Source: a virus. From it: a stretch of DNA of 42,643 nt. Location: the UHGV virus genome UHGV-1882081. One strand, written 5' to 3'. How positions within the stretch are numbered: the stretch's first letter is position 1; each line of letters starts with the position of its first letter. The notes under the pieces are model-generated. The model searched no databases. It was not told where the DNA came from and saw only the letters and a program-made list of their open reading frames with translations. The position numbers and the translations under genes were made by a program. Shown here piece after piece: positions 10,816-35,663 of this stretch.

Positions 10816-11272
10816 TCTTTAGCTCCTCGTATTTTGAGCGCGGTAACTGATAAATAGTGATGCCTACAGGCTTTCCATTGCTGGTATAAGCATCATCAAG
10901 GTGACCAACACGGGTAGCGCCAAGCAAACGGATAATTGCCCGTCCGTATTTCGTGGTGTCAGGAACCATGGTGATGCTGTTAAGGAATGGTGAGTTTTCG
11001 AGAAGCCATTTGCAGAATAATCGATGCCCTTGCAGTGCATATTCACCACGGAATCCGGGGTCGTACACCGCATGGCATTCAACAACGCTATGCCAGAAGT
11101 TACGCACTTCATGAACGCCAGCCAGCACTAATCCTTCGTAGATGCCGAGATATACCGCATCAGGCTTGATGTAGTATTTGTCTCCACTGTCTACGATATT
11201 TCCCGTGTTTGCCGGGTTGTTGAGGAATTCTGCAAGCTTCACCGGATTATCGATGAGCTTTATTTCCATCAC
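10790..11272 (-). CDS. P22 gp14-like virion protein
   Basis: 160-aa ORF at the conserved position between needle and gp7. Confidence 0.65.
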
Positions 11273-12117
11273 TGCTCCGCAATGATTTTGATGGTTGTGG
11301 CAGTAAACGCCGCACCATTAGACTGAATGGTTAACGTGCTGCCATTTGTGGCAAGAAAGCCGTCTTTATCCACGCTGAAGAACGTAGCTAACAGGATGTT
11401 ATCGGTCGTTGTCGCCGCATTACGACTGCTTACCAGCGTGTCAGGGACAGAGCCGGAAAAGGTTAGCTGCATTGACCTGTTGGCGGTTCCGCTGGGCCAC
11501 GTCCCGACAATCGACAGCTTGAAGAACAAGGTTTTGTTCTCGTTGAACACAACCATCTTGTTGTTAACGGTGTCGAAGAATGGTGCCAACGTGCCGGATG
11601 ACGGCGTGAGCGTTTTCAGCAGGCTAACAAGGTTGGTCGGCGCTGTCGGGATGGTTACAGATACGCCAGAGTAAACAACCTCTGACTTCTTGCGAGTAGT
11701 GGCATACTCCAGAGCATCGATGCGCGTTTCATGGTCTGAAACCTGCGACTCCAGCGACTGAACTCTGGTATCAAGCGACGCAATATCGCTTTCATTCTGA
11801 GCTATTCGTGTTTCATGGTCCTGAAGAGTTGATTCTGCCTGACTGATTCGCTCCTCATGATTAACAAGCGTTGCTTCCGCTGCAGAAATTCGCTGCTCAT
11901 GGTCAGCGAGAATCACATCCTGCTCATCGTTCCTGACTTGTGCGTCATAAGCGCCCTGTCCGGCCTCGTTGGCCTTGTTCGCCACGTTACCAACATCAGT
12001 ACCCTGTGCGATAACGTAAAGCAGGTAAGACTGGCTGAATATATTGCGTGGAAGGATTGATGTATCGAGCCGCGTCGTCTGCATAATAACAGGGGTGTTG
12101 AGATTCGAATCAGCCAT
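11269..12117 (-). CDS. tail needle (P22 gp26-like) with Sf6-type C-terminal knob
   Basis: N-terminus [43 protein letters not shown]... matches P22 gp26; 282 aa (P22 is 233 aa), with a C-terminal non-coiled-coil domain. Confidence 0.85.
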
Positions 12118-13535
12118 TACTCAATCCTTATCTGGCAGCCTGACAGAGTGACAGGTGACTTCGTGATAACGCGCAATCTGAAGCCGACATTTTTCCTGAT
12201 GCGCCCGACACGCTTCCACAAAACGCGCTTGTCGTAAACGAACGGTTCATTCTGCTCAATCATCTGCTCACGTCCGTAATTGATGCCGTCAGTGGTTGCC
12301 GATAGGAACAGGCGGTCAGCGTACTGCGCAACGCCAGTTGAAGATTCAACTTCAAGGTCGAAAACTCTGGCGTTATCTGCTTTGAACAACGGAGTAAACA
12401 GCAGGTGTTCCTGCTGCTTGTCATACTGGCTGCTGATATCGAATTGCAGTTTCCCGGTCACGGATTCCAGCTTATCGCCGCACGTTATCTGATTGCCTTC
12501 GTAAATGAAGTCGATAGCGCGGTACACATCGTCATACAGGCCTGTTTTCAGTACACACCATTGCGGACCATTGGCGCTTGAAGATGCGTCGTAAACAAGA
12601 ACATGGCGCGGCAGGTGAATAATCAGCAACTCATGAGCATCAAACCGCAACGATTCCATCACGCCATCAGCCAGTTCATCAGCAGTGTAGGAGCGGAGGA
12701 TTTTCTCAATGCTCGCGCTGGCGATTGGTGATACCTGACCTGATCCGATGATGTATACAGACGGCGCACCCGTTGCCGGATTGCTGATAAACGCATACGA
12801 ATCAGCAAACGGCGTTTTGCAGTAAGTTCCGGCAATGCCTTTCTGCACCATCAGCGATGGCTGGGCGACATACAAAGCAGCACCAACGGTGGTTGCACCA
12901 GTCAGGGAAAAATACTCAATCGTCGATGAACCAAAGCAGACGATGAAGTCTCGCCATGTCCCGATACCGATGATGCCGTCCGGCTGCGATTCTGCGCGAT
13001 ATTGTGCGCTGTAACGGTCAGGATGCGATTCGTCTTCAAGGTCAGTGATAAACCATGAATCAGTACCGTCTTTTGACCACGCATAACGCCCACGTAAGCG
13101 TGTAATGTCGCGGACTGAACCTAACTCATACTGCGTAAATCCGCTGTCTGCAGGCCAGTTTGAGACGGTTTTAACCGTGCCATCATAGCGATACTCGACC
13201 AGTTGACCATTAACGCCTACCGCCTGAGATGTCCGACCATGCGCCATTGATACACGACCACTTCCGGCAACATCACCGACTTCACTTTCGCCCTTATACA
13301 ACTTGCCACCACACACGCGATAAACAGCACTCTGCGCCATGTTGTACTCGACGCCGCGAGATACACCGTTCACATCAGAACGTTTGGCAATGCCCGGGAA
13401 TGAGCGAAGATATCCGCTGCTGTTCAGGATTTCTTTGGGTGTAGCCAGCATATTCACTGGCAGATAGTCGATATAGTCGGCGTTTCGAAAGTCTTTGCCG
13501 ACACCTTTCATAAGCGGAAGTTGCTGAATCGGCAT
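12117..13535 (-). CDS. tail hub/adaptor protein, P22 gp10-like
   Basis: 472-aa ORF, same length and position as P22 gp10. Confidence 0.8.
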
Positions 13536-14013
13536 TTATTCGCTCCCGTTATCGCAAGGTTCCTTCCGGTGGAAGTAATTCCAACCGTTCCACTTCGCCA
13601 ACTGGTTACCACTACCAACAGGCATACGGTTTGGATAACCGGACTTACATTTAGCGGCTTTTGCTCTGTCCATTGCAGACAGTTTGACGAGTCGCTCTTT
13701 CCCGTATCTGGCAGTGGTTATAAGTTTTGCTGGCGCTTCCAGCGCATAATCTGGAGCAATGCGGCAGGCAAGGTTGAAAATGACGGCATTTATAGCGTTA
13801 TTTGATAAGCCGTGCTCATCGCCAGGATCCGGAGCAACATCTGCATCAGCAAAAATGTAGCCAACGTTGATACCAGGTGACGCATCACCGCCAAGCCATT
13901 CAGCCATCATCATTTCAAGGTCGTTGACGCCGTCTTCCATAGACTGCGGTTCGACATCGGTTAACGTGGCATTTGATGCAACACCGAGCTTACGTAATGC
14001 TGCAAGGACTAAA

Positions 14014-28552: not shown

Positions 28553-28625
28553 NNNNNNNNNNNNNNNNNNNNNNNNNNNNNNNNNNNNNNNNNNNNNNNN
28601 NNNNNNNNNNNNNNNNNNNNNNNNN
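28553..28625. other. run of 73 N (assembly gap or masked sequence)
   Basis: Literal n characters; junction of O-like and helicase genes is unresolved. Confidence 0.95.
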
Positions 28626-31723: not shown

Positions 31724-31805
31724 NNNNNNNNNNNNNNNNNNNNNNNNNNNNNNNNNNNNNNNNNNNNNNNNNNNNNNNNNNNNNNNNNNNNNNNNNNNNN
31801 NNNNN
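31724..31805. other. run of 82 N (assembly gap or masked sequence)
   Basis: Literal n characters. Confidence 0.95.
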
Positions 31806-33766: not shown

Positions 33767-34474
33767 ATGGATTTGAATAAATTCGATGAGCCATTCAGCC
33801 CCGAAGATATCGAATGGCGAATACAGCAAAGCGGTAAAACACGCGATGGCAAGGTGTGGGCTATGGTGCTGGCTTATGTCACGAACCGGGCAATCATGAA
33901 ACGCCTGGACGATGTTTGCGGCAAAGCAGGATGGCGCAATGAATACCGCGATATTCCCAACAACGGCGGAGTTGAATGCGGCATATCAATCAAGATTGAT
34001 TCCGAATGGGTAACCAAATGGGATGCTGCTGAAAACACGCAGGTAGAAGCCGTCAAAGGTGGTCGTTCCGGTGCAATGAAGCGCGCTGCCGTTCAGTGGG
34101 GAATCGGTCGGTATCTGTATAACCTTGAGGAAGGTTTCGCACAAACATCTCTCGATAAAAAGCAGGGGTGGCACAGGGCAAAACTGAAGGATGGAACAGG
34201 ATTTTACTGGCTCCCTCCATCGCTTCCGGGATGGGCAATCCCAGCATCAGATAACAAACCATCACCAGAAAATACCAACCAGAAATCTCCATCGGTTGAC
34301 TGCGAACAAATCCTGAAAGACTTCAGCGATTATGCGTCAACAGAAACTGACAAGAAAAAACTCATCGAGCGTTATCAGCGTGACTGGCAATTAATGGCTG
34401 GCAATGAGGATGCGCAGGCTAAATGCGTTCAGGTAATGAACATCAGAGTTAACGAACTAAAACAGGCGGCATAA
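33767..34474 (+). CDS. single-strand annealing recombinase, Rad52/Sak-like core
   Basis: 235-aa ORF with Rad52-family signature VWAMVLAYVTNRAIMKRLDDVCGKAGWRNEY; immediately followed by an ssb gene. Confidence 0.65.
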   Translation: MDLNKFDEPFSPEDIEWRIQQSGKTRDGKVWAMVLAYVTNRAIMKRLDDVCGKAGWRNEYRDIPNNGGVECGISIKIDSEWVTKWDAAENTQVEAVKGGRSGAMKRAAVQWGIGRYLYNLEEGFAQTSLDKKQGWHRAKLKDGTGFYWLPPSLPGWAIPASDNKPSPENTNQKSPSVDCEQILKDFSDYASTETDKKKLIERYQRDWQLMAGNEDAQAKCVQVMNIRVNELKQAA

Positions 34475-34981
34475 ATGGCAAGCAGAGGCGTAAATAAGGT
34501 GATTATCCTTGGTCGGGTAGGACAAGACCCGGAAGTTCGATACTCACCATCAGGAACAGCGTTCGCTAACCTGACAATAGCCACGTCAGAACAATGGCGA
34601 GATAAAAATACTGGCGAGCAAAAGGAATTGACTGAATGGCATCGTGTTGCTGTATCCGGGAAACTGGCTGAGGTCGTGGGGCAGTATGTGAAAAAAGGTG
34701 ATCAGATTTATTTCGAGGGAATGCTGAGAACCAGAAAGTGGAAAGACCAGTCAGGGCAAGACCGTTACACAACCGAGGTTCATGTCGGAATTAATGGCGT
34801 GATGCAAATGCTTGGCGGCATTGGCGACAGCAAACAACAAGCAGCCAGCAGGCAATCACAGAAGCCACAGCAGCAATCATCACCAGCACAACACAACGAA
34901 CCTCCGATGGATTTTGACGACGATATACCCTTTGCACCAGTAACTCTCCCCTTCCCTCGTCACGCTATTCACGCAATTTAA
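34475..34981 (+). CDS. ssb: single-stranded DNA-binding protein (SSB) with 15-aa extension beyond the DDDIPF tail
   Basis: [60 protein letters not shown]... OB-fold core, Gln/Ser-rich linker, then MDFDDDIPF followed by [15 protein letters not shown] before the stop. Confidence 0.85.
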
Positions 34982-34994
34982 TCAGGAGAAAATC

Positions 34995-35230
34995 ATGCCA
35001 GTGCCTCGGTATGGTGCGGATGACCCGCGCCGCTGTTCCGGCAATTCCGTATCGGAGGTGCTGGATAAATTCAGAAAAAACTACGATCGGATAATGTCGC
35101 TACCGCAGGAAACGAAAGAGGAAAAGGAATTTCGCCATTGCATATGGCTTGCAGAGAAAGAAGAACGCGAGCGAATTTACCAGACATCAATCCGACCATT
35201 CCGCAAAGCCACATATACCCACTTCCCTGA
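34995..35230 (+). CDS. hypothetical protein, N-terminal part (truncated by N-run)
   Basis: MPVPRYGADDPRRCSGNSVSEVLDKFRKNYDRIMSLPQETKEEKEFRHCIWLAEKEERERIYQ... runs into the gap. Confidence 0.4.
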
Positions 35231-35311
35231 NNNNNNNNNNNNNNNNNNNNNNNNNNNNNNNNNNNNNNNNNNNNNNNNNNNNNNNNNNNNNNNNNNNNNN
35301 NNNNNNNNNNN
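35231..35311. other. run of 81 N (assembly gap or masked sequence)
   Basis: Literal n characters. Confidence 0.95.
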
Positions 35312-35372
35312 CCGCGCCTGCGTAATTACCGCTCACGCTATGGCGCTATCAGTAATGACTGAGGAATTAACA

Positions 35373-35663
35373 ATGAAAACAATGAAGCTAAATATCGACC
35401 TCGGCAAATACGTTATTACCGGAACCAAACACGACCTGATTCTTAGTGAAAGAGGAATTATCAAAGAAGGTGAGAATGCAGGGAAAGAAACACTAAGTCG
35501 TATCGGTTATTACAGCAAGTTTGAGCATCTGGTTAAAGAGTTATGCAACCGTGAAATTCTGTTATCTCAAGCGCGGACGCTACAGGATATTCAGCAGCAT
35601 ATCGAGACTTTAGGTGTGTCACTTAGCATGGCCGTTGACCAGTTCGTGGAGAGTAAATCATGA
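35373..35663 (+). CDS. hypothetical protein
   Basis: GAGG RBS; [57 protein letters not shown]... (96 aa). Confidence 0.5.

What the first reader, a model, noticed from the sequence alone, without database searches (positions are those of the whole stretch)
34475..34981. SSB whose conserved DDDIPF interaction tip is internal rather than C-terminal
The SSB ORF has a standard OB-fold N-terminus and a Gln/Ser-rich linker, but after MDFDDDIPF it continues for 15 more residues ([15 protein letters not shown]) before the stop. In canonical SSBs the terminal Phe carboxylate is important for partner binding, so this variant may have altered or lost host-partner interactions. It may instead pair specifically with the adjacent Rad52-like recombinase. 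A sequencing error or stop-codon mutation is also possible.
Basis: seen in the sequence. Interest (0 to 1): 0.45.

Follow-up and report, generated by a model that had tools for sequence, protein, structure and literature searches.

The report
Capped phage SSB at endonuclease site
This prophage's single-stranded-DNA-binding protein really does carry 15 extra residues after its normally terminal partner-binding tip; it is a widespread, conserved allele, the same 15 codons end a mobile endonuclease gene that sits at exactly this spot in sister phages, and the cap probably changes which proteins the SSB can recruit.

Summary
Window 34475-34981 encodes a 168-aa bacterial-type SSB ending ...[24 protein letters not shown]. 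It is not an error: the same allele is in phages HK75, mEp235 and mEpX2 and in about 175 complete E. coli genome records at >=99% identity. A 15-aa extension of the same pattern is found in 108 of the 120 best SSB protein clusters, across many Enterobacteriaceae.

The new point is what the 15 codons are. In sister phages (Huey, Sf6) ssb stops right after ...IPF. A putative HNH-type endonuclease gene follows, and its last 14-15 codons are this same DNA. Window and Huey ssb are identical for 431 nt and then differ at 8 of the last 28 nt before the insertion point. So the window carries the endonuclease-free allele of a mobile-gene insertion site.

The segment evolves under purifying selection in this frame (pN/pS 0.17-0.40). 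It is more diverse in SSBs than in endonucleases and lies outside the endonuclease fold. It is therefore probably a genuine SSB feature that caps the tip.

One extra glycine already blocks chi and DnaG binding in E. coli SSB, so altered partner binding is likely but untested. Specific pairing with the Rad52-like recombinase is not supported.

The parts
33767..34474 (+). Rad52/Rad22-family single-strand annealing protein gene (235 aa); its stop codon directly abuts the ssb ATG
   Evidence: ORF. Pfam PF04098 E=5.1e-26. Annotated as 'Rad52/Rad22 family DNA repair protein' in E. coli 14EC033.
34475..34981 (+). ssb gene, 168 codons plus TAA; endonuclease-free ('empty-site') allele with the capped tip
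   Evidence: 99.4-99.8% identical to the ssb of HK75, mEp235 and mEpX2.
34490..34813 (+). OB-fold ssDNA-binding/tetramerisation core (residues ~6-113)
   Evidence: Pfam SSB match to residues 6-104. The AlphaFold2 model has strands E8-15 to E108-113 with pLDDT about 70-87. pN/pS 0.16 among extension-bearing alleles.
34814..34906 (+). Gln/Ser/Pro-rich disordered linker (residues 114-144)
   Evidence: pLDDT <50. Indel-rich and poorly conserved in alignment A2.
34907..34933 (+). Acidic SSB tip MDFDDDIPF (residues 145-153), here internal. These are canonical tip codons, proposed to be part of the endonuclease's recognition site (inferred).
   Evidence: Sequence. pN/pS 0.10 among extension alleles. 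All 8 window/Huey differences inside ssb fall at 34906-34930. Endonuclease-bearing alleles never have the canonical DDDIPF.
34933..34934 (+). Insertion point: in Huey, Sf6 and relatives a cassette lies between the Phe153 and Ala154 codons. The cassette is a stop codon, a 9-15 nt spacer with ribosome-binding site, and about 140-144 codons of endonuclease.
   Evidence: Alignment, translations, mismatch map.
34934..34978 (+). 15-codon extension [15 protein letters not shown]. [quoted passage not shown]
   Evidence: 100% DNA identity from CCAGTAACT... to the abc2 start among window, HK75, Huey and Sf6. Tail catalogue. Purifying selection in this frame. Disordered in both the SSB and endonuclease models.
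34979..34994 (+). TAA stop of ssb followed by a 13-nt spacer with AGGAG (34984-34988), serving the next gene
   Evidence: Sequence. No promoter, terminator, stable RNA structure or Rfam match in this region.
34995..35230 (+). 5' part of abc2 (anti-RecBCD). The ORF runs into a masked N-run (35231-35311), so its true end is not visible in the window.
   Evidence: Pfam PF11043 E=8.1e-49 over residues 1-77. N-runs listed. The intact 97-98-aa homologue follows ssb in HK75 and E. coli 14EC033.

Best explanation
The window carries the endonuclease-free allele of a polymorphic ssb 3' end found in temperate (lambdoid/P22-like) phages of Enterobacteriaceae. In this allele translation of ssb continues past the acidic tip through a conserved 15-codon segment. 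The product is a bacterial-type SSB whose DDDIPF tip is capped by [AS]-P-[VIA]-[TG]-L-[PQ]-[FY]-x-[RK]-H-x-[IV]-[HY]-x-[IL].

In the alternative allele a free-standing putative His-Me/HNH endonuclease gene (phrog_2340; Sf6 gp26 type) sits exactly between the Phe and Ala codons. That cassette brings a stop codon, so the SSB then ends at a recoded ...IPF. The endonuclease ORF runs out through the same 15 codons.

Shown: the architecture, the insertion/absence polymorphism, the recoding next to the insert, the wide distribution, and purifying selection on the segment in this frame.

Inferred: (i) the segment is primarily an SSB feature that the endonuclease ORF reads into, rather than a neutral scar. 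(ii) The endonuclease homes into alleles with the canonical tip codons. (iii) Because the Phe alpha-carboxylate is no longer free, the capped SSB coats ssDNA but cannot dock in the canonical SSB-tip pockets of host proteins (chi, DnaG, ExoI, RecQ, PriA and others). Within this Rad52-like/SSB/anti-RecBCD module that would shield phage recombination intermediates rather than recruit host nucleases and helicases. (iv) The tip plus cap together may form a different interaction peptide.
For: Architecture and spread:
- 108 of 120 SSB clusters carry an extension, always of 15 aa.
- About 230-300 of 5,426 complete E. coli genomes carry the uninterrupted junction. About 109 carry the endonuclease: 99 Sf6-type and 10 Huey-type.

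Same DNA as the endonuclease tail.

Mobile-element behaviour:
- Window vs Huey: 0 mismatches over ssb 34475-34905, 8 mismatches in 34906-34930, then a 469-nt versus 31-nt block, then an identical right flank.
- The endonuclease lies 8-16 nt after an ssb stop in 63 of 65 viral loci. These include unrelated SSB and annealase types.
- In a second locus type the empty site is a normal ...DFDDDIPF* (L245-247) and the filled site is ...NFDDEIPF* plus endonuclease (L156-158), with the same downstream spacer.

The segment is an SSB/locus feature:
- Deeply diverged extensions occur fused to SSBs (SPVGLQYGKHRVYAL, APIGLQFSRHSIHAI, APVGLPYPRHCIYLI) but in none of 77 endonuclease clusters.
- The tail occurs in two endonuclease clades only about 42% identical to each other, and the nearest relatives of each end differently.
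- The phrog_2340 profile match ends at residue 139-143. The folded model (pLDDT 97-98) ends at about residue 143 and the tail has low confidence.
- The tail is truncated or frameshifted in 3 of 10 tail-bearing endonuclease clusters versus 1 of 109 SSB clusters (Fisher p=0.0017).

Selection:
- pN/pS of the extension is 0.37-0.40 over all endonuclease-free alleles and 0.17 for PVT-type alleles. The OB fold gives 0.16.
- There is no length variation, although the adjacent linker is indel-rich.
- No nucleotide-level element explains the conservation.

Functional inference: EcoSSB with one extra Gly is severely impaired for chi binding, shows no DnaG complex and grows slowly (PMC3632105). Phage SSB tips mediate annealase recruitment in HK620 (PMC5928155).
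Against: - No experiment on this protein exists. The Sf6 and ES18 SSBs are stated to be unstudied (PMC12315714).
- The capped tip MDFDDDIPF is itself still under strong purifying selection (pN/pS 0.10). That is unexpected if capping simply inactivates it.
- Phages with the uncapped allele (Huey, Sf6) are viable with the same neighbours, so the cap is not essential.
- The direction of evolution is unresolved. Many tail-less endonucleases end ...A-A*, and the junction residue in the SSB is Ala. In-frame SSB-endonuclease deletion fusions exist (P0131, P0134). Four alleles combine the filled-site tip NFDDEIPF with the extension (P0003, P0005, P0120, CP-1639).
- The selection estimates rest on 15 codons, a dozen distinct alleles and non-independent pairs. 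Recombination with endonuclease-bearing alleles could import constraint.
- The endonuclease assignment rests on a PHROG label and an HH..D..P...C..CH...H motif. Pfam, PDB-sequence and Foldseek searches gave nothing significant.
Confidence: 0.55

Rival explanations
1. Neutral scar. The extension is left over from an endonuclease gene that once followed ssb. A deletion or an abortive homing repair joined the Phe codon in frame to the last 15 codons of the endonuclease ORF. The peptide has no function of its own in SSB. It persists because the ssb-recombination module is dispensable, or because the allele is continually re-homogenised by recombination with endonuclease-bearing alleles in which the tail is selected.
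For: The 15 codons are identical to the endonuclease tail. Endonuclease decay by deletion is seen: an internal deletion in phiKp_30 (L006), SSB-endonuclease fusions P0131 and P0134, and endonuclease-exonuclease fusions. Tail-less family members commonly end ...AA*, matching the junction Ala. NFDDEIPF-plus-extension alleles look like Huey-type alleles that lost the gene. Tail variants such as AIYAI, AIHAL and TIHAI are shared between the SSB and endonuclease pools. pN/pS of endonuclease tails is 0.16.
Against: The deletion would have to start exactly at the ssb stop codon, whereas the observed decay products keep the stop (L006) or destroy the SSB tail (P0134). Common extension alleles carry the canonical tip codons, not the recoded tip found next to every endonuclease. 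The most divergent extensions have no endonuclease counterpart among 77 clusters. The tail is outside the family profile and the fold and is disrupted more often in endonucleases than in SSBs. There is no length change in 108 of 109 SSB clusters.
Confidence: 0.3
2. First reader's adaptor idea. The extension re-targets the SSB specifically to the adjacent Rad52-like recombinase in place of host partners.
For: Cognate phage SSB tails can recruit the neighbouring annealase (HK620 Sak4; PMC5928155). The window's ssb directly abuts a Rad52-family gene.
Against: The same extension type occurs next to Sak4/AAA_24 (L086, L241, L242), Erf-type (ECP1, CP-1639) and Rad52-like genes. Huey has a near-identical Rad52-like gene (10 nucleotide differences in 708 nt) with an uncapped SSB.
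Confidence: 0.05
3. Artefact or private lesion: a sequencing or assembly error, or a recent stop-codon mutation confined to this genome.
For: Relatives with a stop directly after ...IPF exist.
Against: The identical allele is found in independently sequenced phages and in about 175 E. coli genome records. Relatives with a stop differ by a 438-nt insertion or belong to another locus type, not by a point change.
Confidence: 0.01
4. The conserved thing is a nucleic-acid element (terminator, RNA structure, regulatory site or only the endonuclease's recognition sequence), and translation of it is incidental.
For: pS in the extension (0.46-0.50) is lower than in the OB fold (0.73). The segment ends 13 nt before the next start codon, so read-through could serve translational coupling.
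Against: No promoter- or terminator-like site was found. The RNA fold z-score is +1.0, less stable than shuffles. There is no Rfam hit. Diverged alleles keep residue classes (F/Y, R/K, I/V/L, invariant P2, L5, H10) while changing most nucleotides.
Confidence: 0.04

Closest known systems
Canonical bacterial homotetrameric SSB (E. coli SSB; Pfam PF00436) with the C-terminal SSB-Ct tip DDDIPF
   Same: OB-fold core, disordered Gln/Pro/Ser-rich linker, and the acidic-hydrophobic motif [11 protein letters not shown] identical to the E. coli tip.
   Different: The Phe is followed by 15 conserved residues, so there is no free alpha-carboxylate at the tip. The gene is encoded in a phage recombination module, not next to uvrA.
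Engineered EcoSSB+Gly (one extra C-terminal residue; Naue et al. 2013, PMC3632105, and reference 29 therein)
   Same: The tip Phe is no longer terminal.
   Different: SSB+Gly is a laboratory mutant with impaired chi and DnaG binding and slow growth. Here the cap is natural, 15 residues long, conserved and widespread. Its effect is untested.
Sf6 gene 27 (ssb) / gene 26 (endonuclease) and Huey CDS0029/0028: the filled allele of the same site
   Same: Same module order (annealase, ssb, [endonuclease], abc2) and identical last 45 nt before the abc2 ribosome-binding site. The Sf6 GenBank note already records that gp26 shares 14 contiguous residues with an 'E. coli SSB'.
   Different: ssb stops at a recoded tip (NFDDSDIPF* or NFDDEIPF*), and the 15 codons are translated as the endonuclease's tail instead of the SSB's.
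Free-standing homing endonuclease genes of phages (for example T4 seg/mob genes, 'intronless homing'; from general knowledge)
   Same: Presence/absence polymorphism at a fixed intergenic or gene-end position. The insertion is next to the most conserved codons of a conserved gene. A short block of clustered substitutions in the flanking gene lies next to the insert.
   Different: Nuclease activity and homing are unproven here. The endonuclease ORF has no stop of its own in this locus and terminates in codons that otherwise belong to the neighbouring gene's product.
HK620 SSB (HkaK) and its cognate annealase Sak4 (Hutinet et al. 2018, PMC5928155)
   Same: A phage-encoded SSB in the same early-left recombination module. 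Its C-terminal residues were shown to be needed to recruit and stimulate the neighbouring annealase.
   Different: The HK620 protein ends in a free NDYPPF. A later paper (PMC12315714) classes it as not homologous to bacterial SSB. It has no cap.

Membership tests
Bacterial-type SSB (PF00436) | N-terminal OB-fold ssDNA-binding domain | tested here: met
   Pfam E=1.6e-36 over residues 6-104. phrog_44 E=1.6e-66. OB-fold strands in the AlphaFold2 model.
Bacterial-type SSB (PF00436) | Intrinsically disordered linker followed by an acidic tip D-D-D-[IV]-P-F | tested here: met
   Residues 114-144 have low complexity and pLDDT <50. MDFDDDIPF lies at residues 145-153.
Bacterial-type SSB (PF00436) | Tip Phe is the last residue, giving the free alpha-carboxylate used by the partner pockets of chi, ExoI, RecQ, DnaG and others | tested here: not met
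   15 residues follow Phe153. The same holds in 108 of 120 related clusters. The requirement is documented by SSB+Gly (PMC3632105).
Bacterial-type SSB (PF00436) | ssDNA binding, tetramer formation and partner recruitment | not testable with these tools
   This needs biochemistry. The Sf6 and ES18 homologues are stated to be unstudied (PMC12315714).
Empty (uninterrupted) allele of a free-standing homing-endonuclease insertion site | Presence/absence of the gene at one exact position between otherwise near-identical flanks | tested here: met
   Window vs Huey: the left flank within ssb is identical for 431 nt. The right flank is identical through the 45-nt tail and 97-98% identical beyond it (7 mismatches in 294 nt). 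The variable block is 31 nt versus 469 nt. The pattern repeats in a second locus type.
Empty (uninterrupted) allele of a free-standing homing-endonuclease insertion site | Filled alleles carry substitutions at the presumed target, giving self-immunity or a co-conversion tract | tested here: met
   8 substitutions fall in the 28 nt before the insert versus 0 in the preceding 431 nt. No endonuclease-bearing locus has the canonical DDDIPF; they have DDSDIPF, DDEIPF, DDQDIPF and similar.
Empty (uninterrupted) allele of a free-standing homing-endonuclease insertion site | The inserted ORF is a nuclease of a recognised homing family (HNH/His-Me finger) | tested here: inconclusive
   phrog_2340 'endonuclease' scores E=4e-39 and 3e-47. 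Invariant C100, C103, H112, H113, D115, H130 and H134 give a motif typical of zinc-HNH proteins. There is no Pfam hit, no PDB sequence hit and no significant Foldseek hit; the HNH proteins Cap5 and PacI appear only at E>1.
Empty (uninterrupted) allele of a free-standing homing-endonuclease insertion site | The endonuclease cleaves the empty allele and is copied into it | not testable with these tools
   This requires an in vitro cleavage assay and mixed-infection crosses.
Beta-clamp-binding peptide (QLxLx[LF]-type), considered only as a lead for the cap's function | Hexapeptide with hydrophobic residues at positions 2, 4 and 6 in a disordered terminus, binding the clamp's hydrophobic cleft | not tested
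   P-[VIA]-[TG]-L-[PQ]-[FY] has the hydrophobic spacing but lacks the leading Gln. The resemblance is recalled from memory only, and no complex-prediction tool was available.

The most novel reading that the evidence does not exclude
A large clade of temperate-phage SSBs has evolved a selected 15-residue cap that turns the universally terminal SSB tip into an internal motif. This would create a 'stealth' SSB that protects phage ssDNA without recruiting host tip-binding nucleases and helicases, or that presents a new composite docking peptide (possibly clamp-like, PVTLPF). A homing endonuclease that inserts exactly between tip and cap would then toggle the phage between capped and uncapped SSB while borrowing the cap as its own tail.
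Probability: 0.25. Interest if true: 0.75.

Novelty: new variant of a known kind. Interest (0 to 1): 0.55.

Why it matters
The SSB tip is treated as an invariant C-terminal hub for at least a dozen genome-maintenance proteins, and its terminal Phe is regarded as essential. A natural, conserved and abundant family of SSBs with that tip capped is therefore a ready-made probe. It is present in roughly 4-6% of complete E. coli genomes and in classic phages such as HK75 and eps34. It could show which SSB functions need the free terminus and how phages insulate their recombination intermediates from host enzymes.

The finding also matters for annotation. The genes are labelled plain 'ssb'. The Sf6-type endonuclease ORF is left unannotated in about 99 E. 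coli genomes. Recent surveys of lambdoid recombination modules count the nuclease as a possible module member rather than a mobile insert.

For recombineering, SSB tails determine annealase portability, so capped and uncapped natural pairs offer a direct test system.

Tried and rejected
1. Extension as a read-through of the intergenic spacer. By eye, the extension DNA looked homologous to the spacer that follows the normal stop in 'clean' alleles (L245-247). A global alignment with 2,000 shuffles gave z of about 0.4, so this is rejected as evidence. Stop-loss remains only a hypothesis for the origin.

2. Genome-contig scan with an SSB alignment.

3. Exact-pattern scans of viral contigs for the divergent extension DNAs. 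No hits, so they could not show whether these types ever end an endonuclease. I relied instead on the 77-cluster protein search.

4. Confirming HNH membership. Pfam on single sequences and on 52 family members, phmmer and hmmsearch against PDB sequences, and Foldseek of a pLDDT-94 model against PDB were all non-significant.

5. Structure of the extension. AlphaFold2 predicts disorder and gives no hint of docking onto the OB fold.

6. Nucleic-acid explanations. No promoter or terminator, RNA z-score +1.0, and only a chance-level Rfam hit.

7. SSB-body phylogeny to polarise the character. I abandoned this because every OB-fold type occurs with every 3'-end type, which indicates recombination in the linker.

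8. Literature. I found no description of the capped SSB or of the SSB/endonuclease shared tail beyond the Sf6 GenBank note. One Sf6 paper states that Sf6 has no homing endonucleases (PMC5630979).

Full report
OBSERVATION

The ORF at 34475-34981 (+) is 168 codons. Residues 6-104 match Pfam SSB (E=1.6e-36). An AlphaFold2 model built on 29 homologues shows the OB fold and a disordered tail from residue 114. The tail ends [13 protein letters not shown] (Phe153 at 34931-34933), followed by [15 protein letters not shown] and TAA. Upstream, a Rad52/Rad22-family gene abuts the ssb start. Downstream, 13 nt after the stop, is abc2 (anti-RecBCD).

NOT AN ARTEFACT

The same 507-nt gene is in phages HK75, mEp235 and mEpX2 (99.4-99.8%). 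It is in eps34, g341c and NM-3 at 89%, and in HZ41, ECP1 and CP-1639 at about 72-75%, extension included. It is also in 412 of 5,426 complete E. coli genomes, with 175 records at >=99%, where RefSeq calls it ssb. Of the 80 best viral-contig loci, 72 have this architecture.

In a search of 5.8 billion proteins, 108 of the best 120 clusters (66-93% identical) carry an extension of exactly 15 residues. These come from Klebsiella, Citrobacter, Salmonella, Enterobacter, Kluyvera, Pluralibacter and Phytobacter. The pattern is [AS]P[VIA][TG]L[PQ][FY]x[RK]Hx[IV][HY]x[IL]. One cluster is truncated to 12 residues.

WHAT THE 15 CODONS ARE

Some BLAST hits were split in two pieces about 440 nt apart. In phage Huey, ssb is 153 codons and ends ...NFDDEIPF*. 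Fifteen nucleotides later a 155-codon 'endonuclease' gene starts, and it ends ...[19 protein letters not shown]. Sf6 genes 27 and 26 are arranged the same way. The Sf6 record even notes that gp26 shares 14 contiguous residues with an 'E. coli SSB'. From CCAGTAACT to the abc2 start, the DNA of window, HK75, Huey and Sf6 is identical.

Window and Huey ssb have no mismatch from 34475 to 34905. They then have 8 mismatches in 34906-34930. Next, 31 nt in the window correspond to 469 nt in Huey, and the sequences coincide again after that. Variants of the endonuclease have GCA (Ala) before CCA GTA, so all 15 extension codons are shared.

THE ENDONUCLEASE BEHAVES AS A MOBILE INSERT

- In 63 of 65 viral loci found with the endonuclease, it lies 8-16 nt after the stop of an ssb gene. 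Some of those SSBs are only 23% identical to the window's, and the loci include different annealases.
- More distant family members are at the same place.
- Every endonuclease-bearing locus has a non-canonical tip: DDSDIPF, DDEIPF, DDQDIPF, DDLDIPF or DDPDIPF. Endonuclease-free loci almost always have DDDIPF.
- A second locus type shows the same rule without any extension. The empty site is ...[11 protein letters not shown] plus an 80-nt spacer (L245-247). The filled site is ...NFDDEIPF* plus endonuclease plus the same spacer (L156-158).
- Two unrelated HNH_3 endonuclease genes (ES18 gp47 type) also occupy the ssb/abc2 junction.
- Decay products exist: an internal deletion in phiKp_30, and in-frame SSB-endonuclease and endonuclease-exonuclease fusions.
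- In complete E. coli genomes about 99 carry the Sf6-type gene (mostly unannotated) and 10 the Huey type. About 230-300 have the uninterrupted junction.

The nuclease assignment itself is only moderately supported. The evidence for it is phrog_2340 (E about 1e-39 to 1e-47) and invariant Cys/His/Asp positions typical of zinc-containing HNH motifs. Pfam, PDB-sequence and Foldseek searches were not significant.

WHOSE PEPTIDE IS IT?

Arguments that the segment belongs to the ssb locus and the endonuclease ORF merely reads into it:

(a) The endonuclease family splits into two clades about 42% identical to each other. Each clade contains members with the PVTLPF... tail and close relatives with other ends (KHFKPSYPEDLKAA*...GEAA*, and others). 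The tail therefore tracks the locus, not the enzyme.
(b) The PHROG profile match stops at residue 139-143. The confident fold (pLDDT 97-98) stops at about residue 143 and the tail has low confidence.
(c) Extensions fused to SSBs are far more diverse (SPVGLQYGKHRVYAL, APIGLQFSRHSIHAI, APVGLPYPRHCIYLI) than any tail seen among 77 endonuclease clusters.
(d) The tail is truncated or frameshifted in 3 of 10 tail-bearing endonuclease clusters (P0122, P0144, P0170) but in only 1 of 109 SSB clusters (p=0.0017).
(e) Simple deletion of the endonuclease would have to begin exactly at the ssb stop codon, and it would leave the recoded tip. Most extension alleles have the canonical tip.

Arguments for the opposite direction, a scar of endonuclease loss:

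- The junction residue is Ala, and many tail-less endonucleases end in Ala-Ala.
- Deletion fusions do occur (P0134).
- Four alleles combine NFDDEIPF with the extension (P0003, P0005, P0120, CP-1639).

I could not polarise this with an SSB tree, because every OB-fold type occurs with every 3'-end type. My visual impression that the extension is homologous to the spacer of clean alleles failed a shuffle test (z about 0.4).

SELECTION

Among ten diverse endonuclease-free alleles, uncorrected pN/pS values are:

- OB fold: 0.16
- Tip: 0.10
- Extension: 0.40

Over the unique tails, the values are 0.37 for all endonuclease-free alleles, 0.17 for PVT-type only, and 0.16 for endonuclease tails. Diverged alleles change most nucleotides yet keep P2, L5, H10 and conservative classes elsewhere. 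They never change length, although the neighbouring linker is full of indels. No promoter, terminator, stable RNA structure or Rfam family accounts for the conservation. The sample is small and the pairs are not independent, so this is suggestive rather than conclusive.

FUNCTION (INFERRED)

Published work shows that adding a single glycine after Phe177 of E. coli SSB severely impairs binding to chi, abolishes the DnaG complex and slows growth. The terminal Phe and carboxylate dock in a pocket shared by chi, ExoI, RecQ, RecO and DnaG (PMC3632105; also PMC5872125). A 15-residue cap should do at least as much.

The module around the gene (annealase, SSB, anti-RecBCD) protects and anneals phage DNA ends. 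An SSB that coats ssDNA without recruiting host exonucleases and helicases would fit that role. Two facts caution against a simple 'dead tip'. First, the capped tip remains strongly conserved (pN/pS 0.10). Second, phages with the uncapped allele are viable. Tip plus cap may therefore act as a composite peptide for an unknown partner.

Specific pairing with the Rad52-like protein is not supported. The extension is found beside Rad52-like, Sak4/AAA_24 and Erf-type annealases. Huey pairs a near-identical Rad52-like gene (10 nucleotide differences in 708 nt) with an uncapped SSB.

COMPARISON WITH KNOWN THINGS AND NOVELTY

The protein is a bacterial-type SSB in fold, linker and tip sequence, but it fails the defining 'terminal Phe' feature. 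The site behaves like the empty allele of a free-standing homing-endonuclease locus, though cleavage is unproven. The alleles are in public databases under the plain label ssb.

The only prior notice I found is the Sf6 GenBank remark. A 2025 survey of lambdoid recombination modules says these SSBs are unstudied and treats the HNH genes as probable module members (PMC12315714). One Sf6 paper states that Sf6 has no homing endonuclease (PMC5630979).

I therefore rate this a new variant of a known kind, of moderate-to-good interest (0.55). The best explanation has confidence 0.55 and the neutral-scar rival 0.30.

Noticed in passing
L151 2310-2831 (ES18 gp47), L152 2334-2831 (S135), L085 2734-3231; also L157 1577-2044: A second, unrelated, AT-rich HNH_3 endonuclease gene occupies the same ssb/abc2 junction in ES18-type phages, next to the same recoded tip NFDDEIPF*. 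One locus has an HNH_3 gene between the Rad52-like gene and ssb. The ssb ends appear to be a hotspot for mobile endonuclease genes.
   Followed up: partly
E. coli genomes, hits H74-H79: The Sf6-type endonuclease ORF (about 159 codons) is present in about 99 complete E. coli genomes but has no annotated feature under the match in the RefSeq records listed.
   Followed up: no
Proteins P0131, P0134, P0144, P0173, P0180, P0183; L006 2351-2554: Natural decay products of the endonuclease. These are in-frame SSB-endonuclease fusions (P0134 joined at a shared 'IVG'), endonuclease-3'-5' exonuclease fusions, and an internal deletion in Klebsiella phage phiKp_30 that leaves the 5' and 3' ends of the gene.
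   Followed up: partly
window 28553-28625, 31724-31805, 35231-35311: Three runs of N (73, 82 and 81 nt). The last one masks the end of abc2 and makes a false 222-aa ORF (34995-35663) that fuses Abc2 (Pfam PF11043) to a DUF5405 protein.
   Followed up: partly
L249 (E. coli 14EC033) 11204-13988: In this strain the prophage carrying the identical ssb allele is integrated beside sbcB (exonuclease I), a classical binder of the SSB tip. This is probably just the attachment site, but it is a curious neighbour.
   Followed up: no
L150 2107-2475 and 2483-3142: A GC-rich phage contig has an SSB ending ...DFDSDDIPFN* (one residue after the Phe), followed by a related endonuclease gene that appears frameshifted.
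   Followed up: no
L248 1501-2007 (Kluyvera), L154 1461-1973 (CP-1639), proteins P0005 and P0120: Alleles that combine the tip variant typical of endonuclease-bearing loci (NFDDEIPF) with the 15-residue extension and no endonuclease. They are possible products of endonuclease loss or of partial co-conversion.
   Followed up: partly
L004 2501-2559 (E. coli EC931): A rearranged prophage in which sequence identical to window 34923-34981 directly abuts a truncated lambda-family holin gene. ssb itself is gone, and IS5 is nearby.
   Followed up: no
window 34658-34683: A weak Rfam match to a Gag/pro ribosomal frameshift site (21.6 bits against a gathering score of 43, E=0.84) inside the OB-fold coding region, almost certainly chance.
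   Followed up: no
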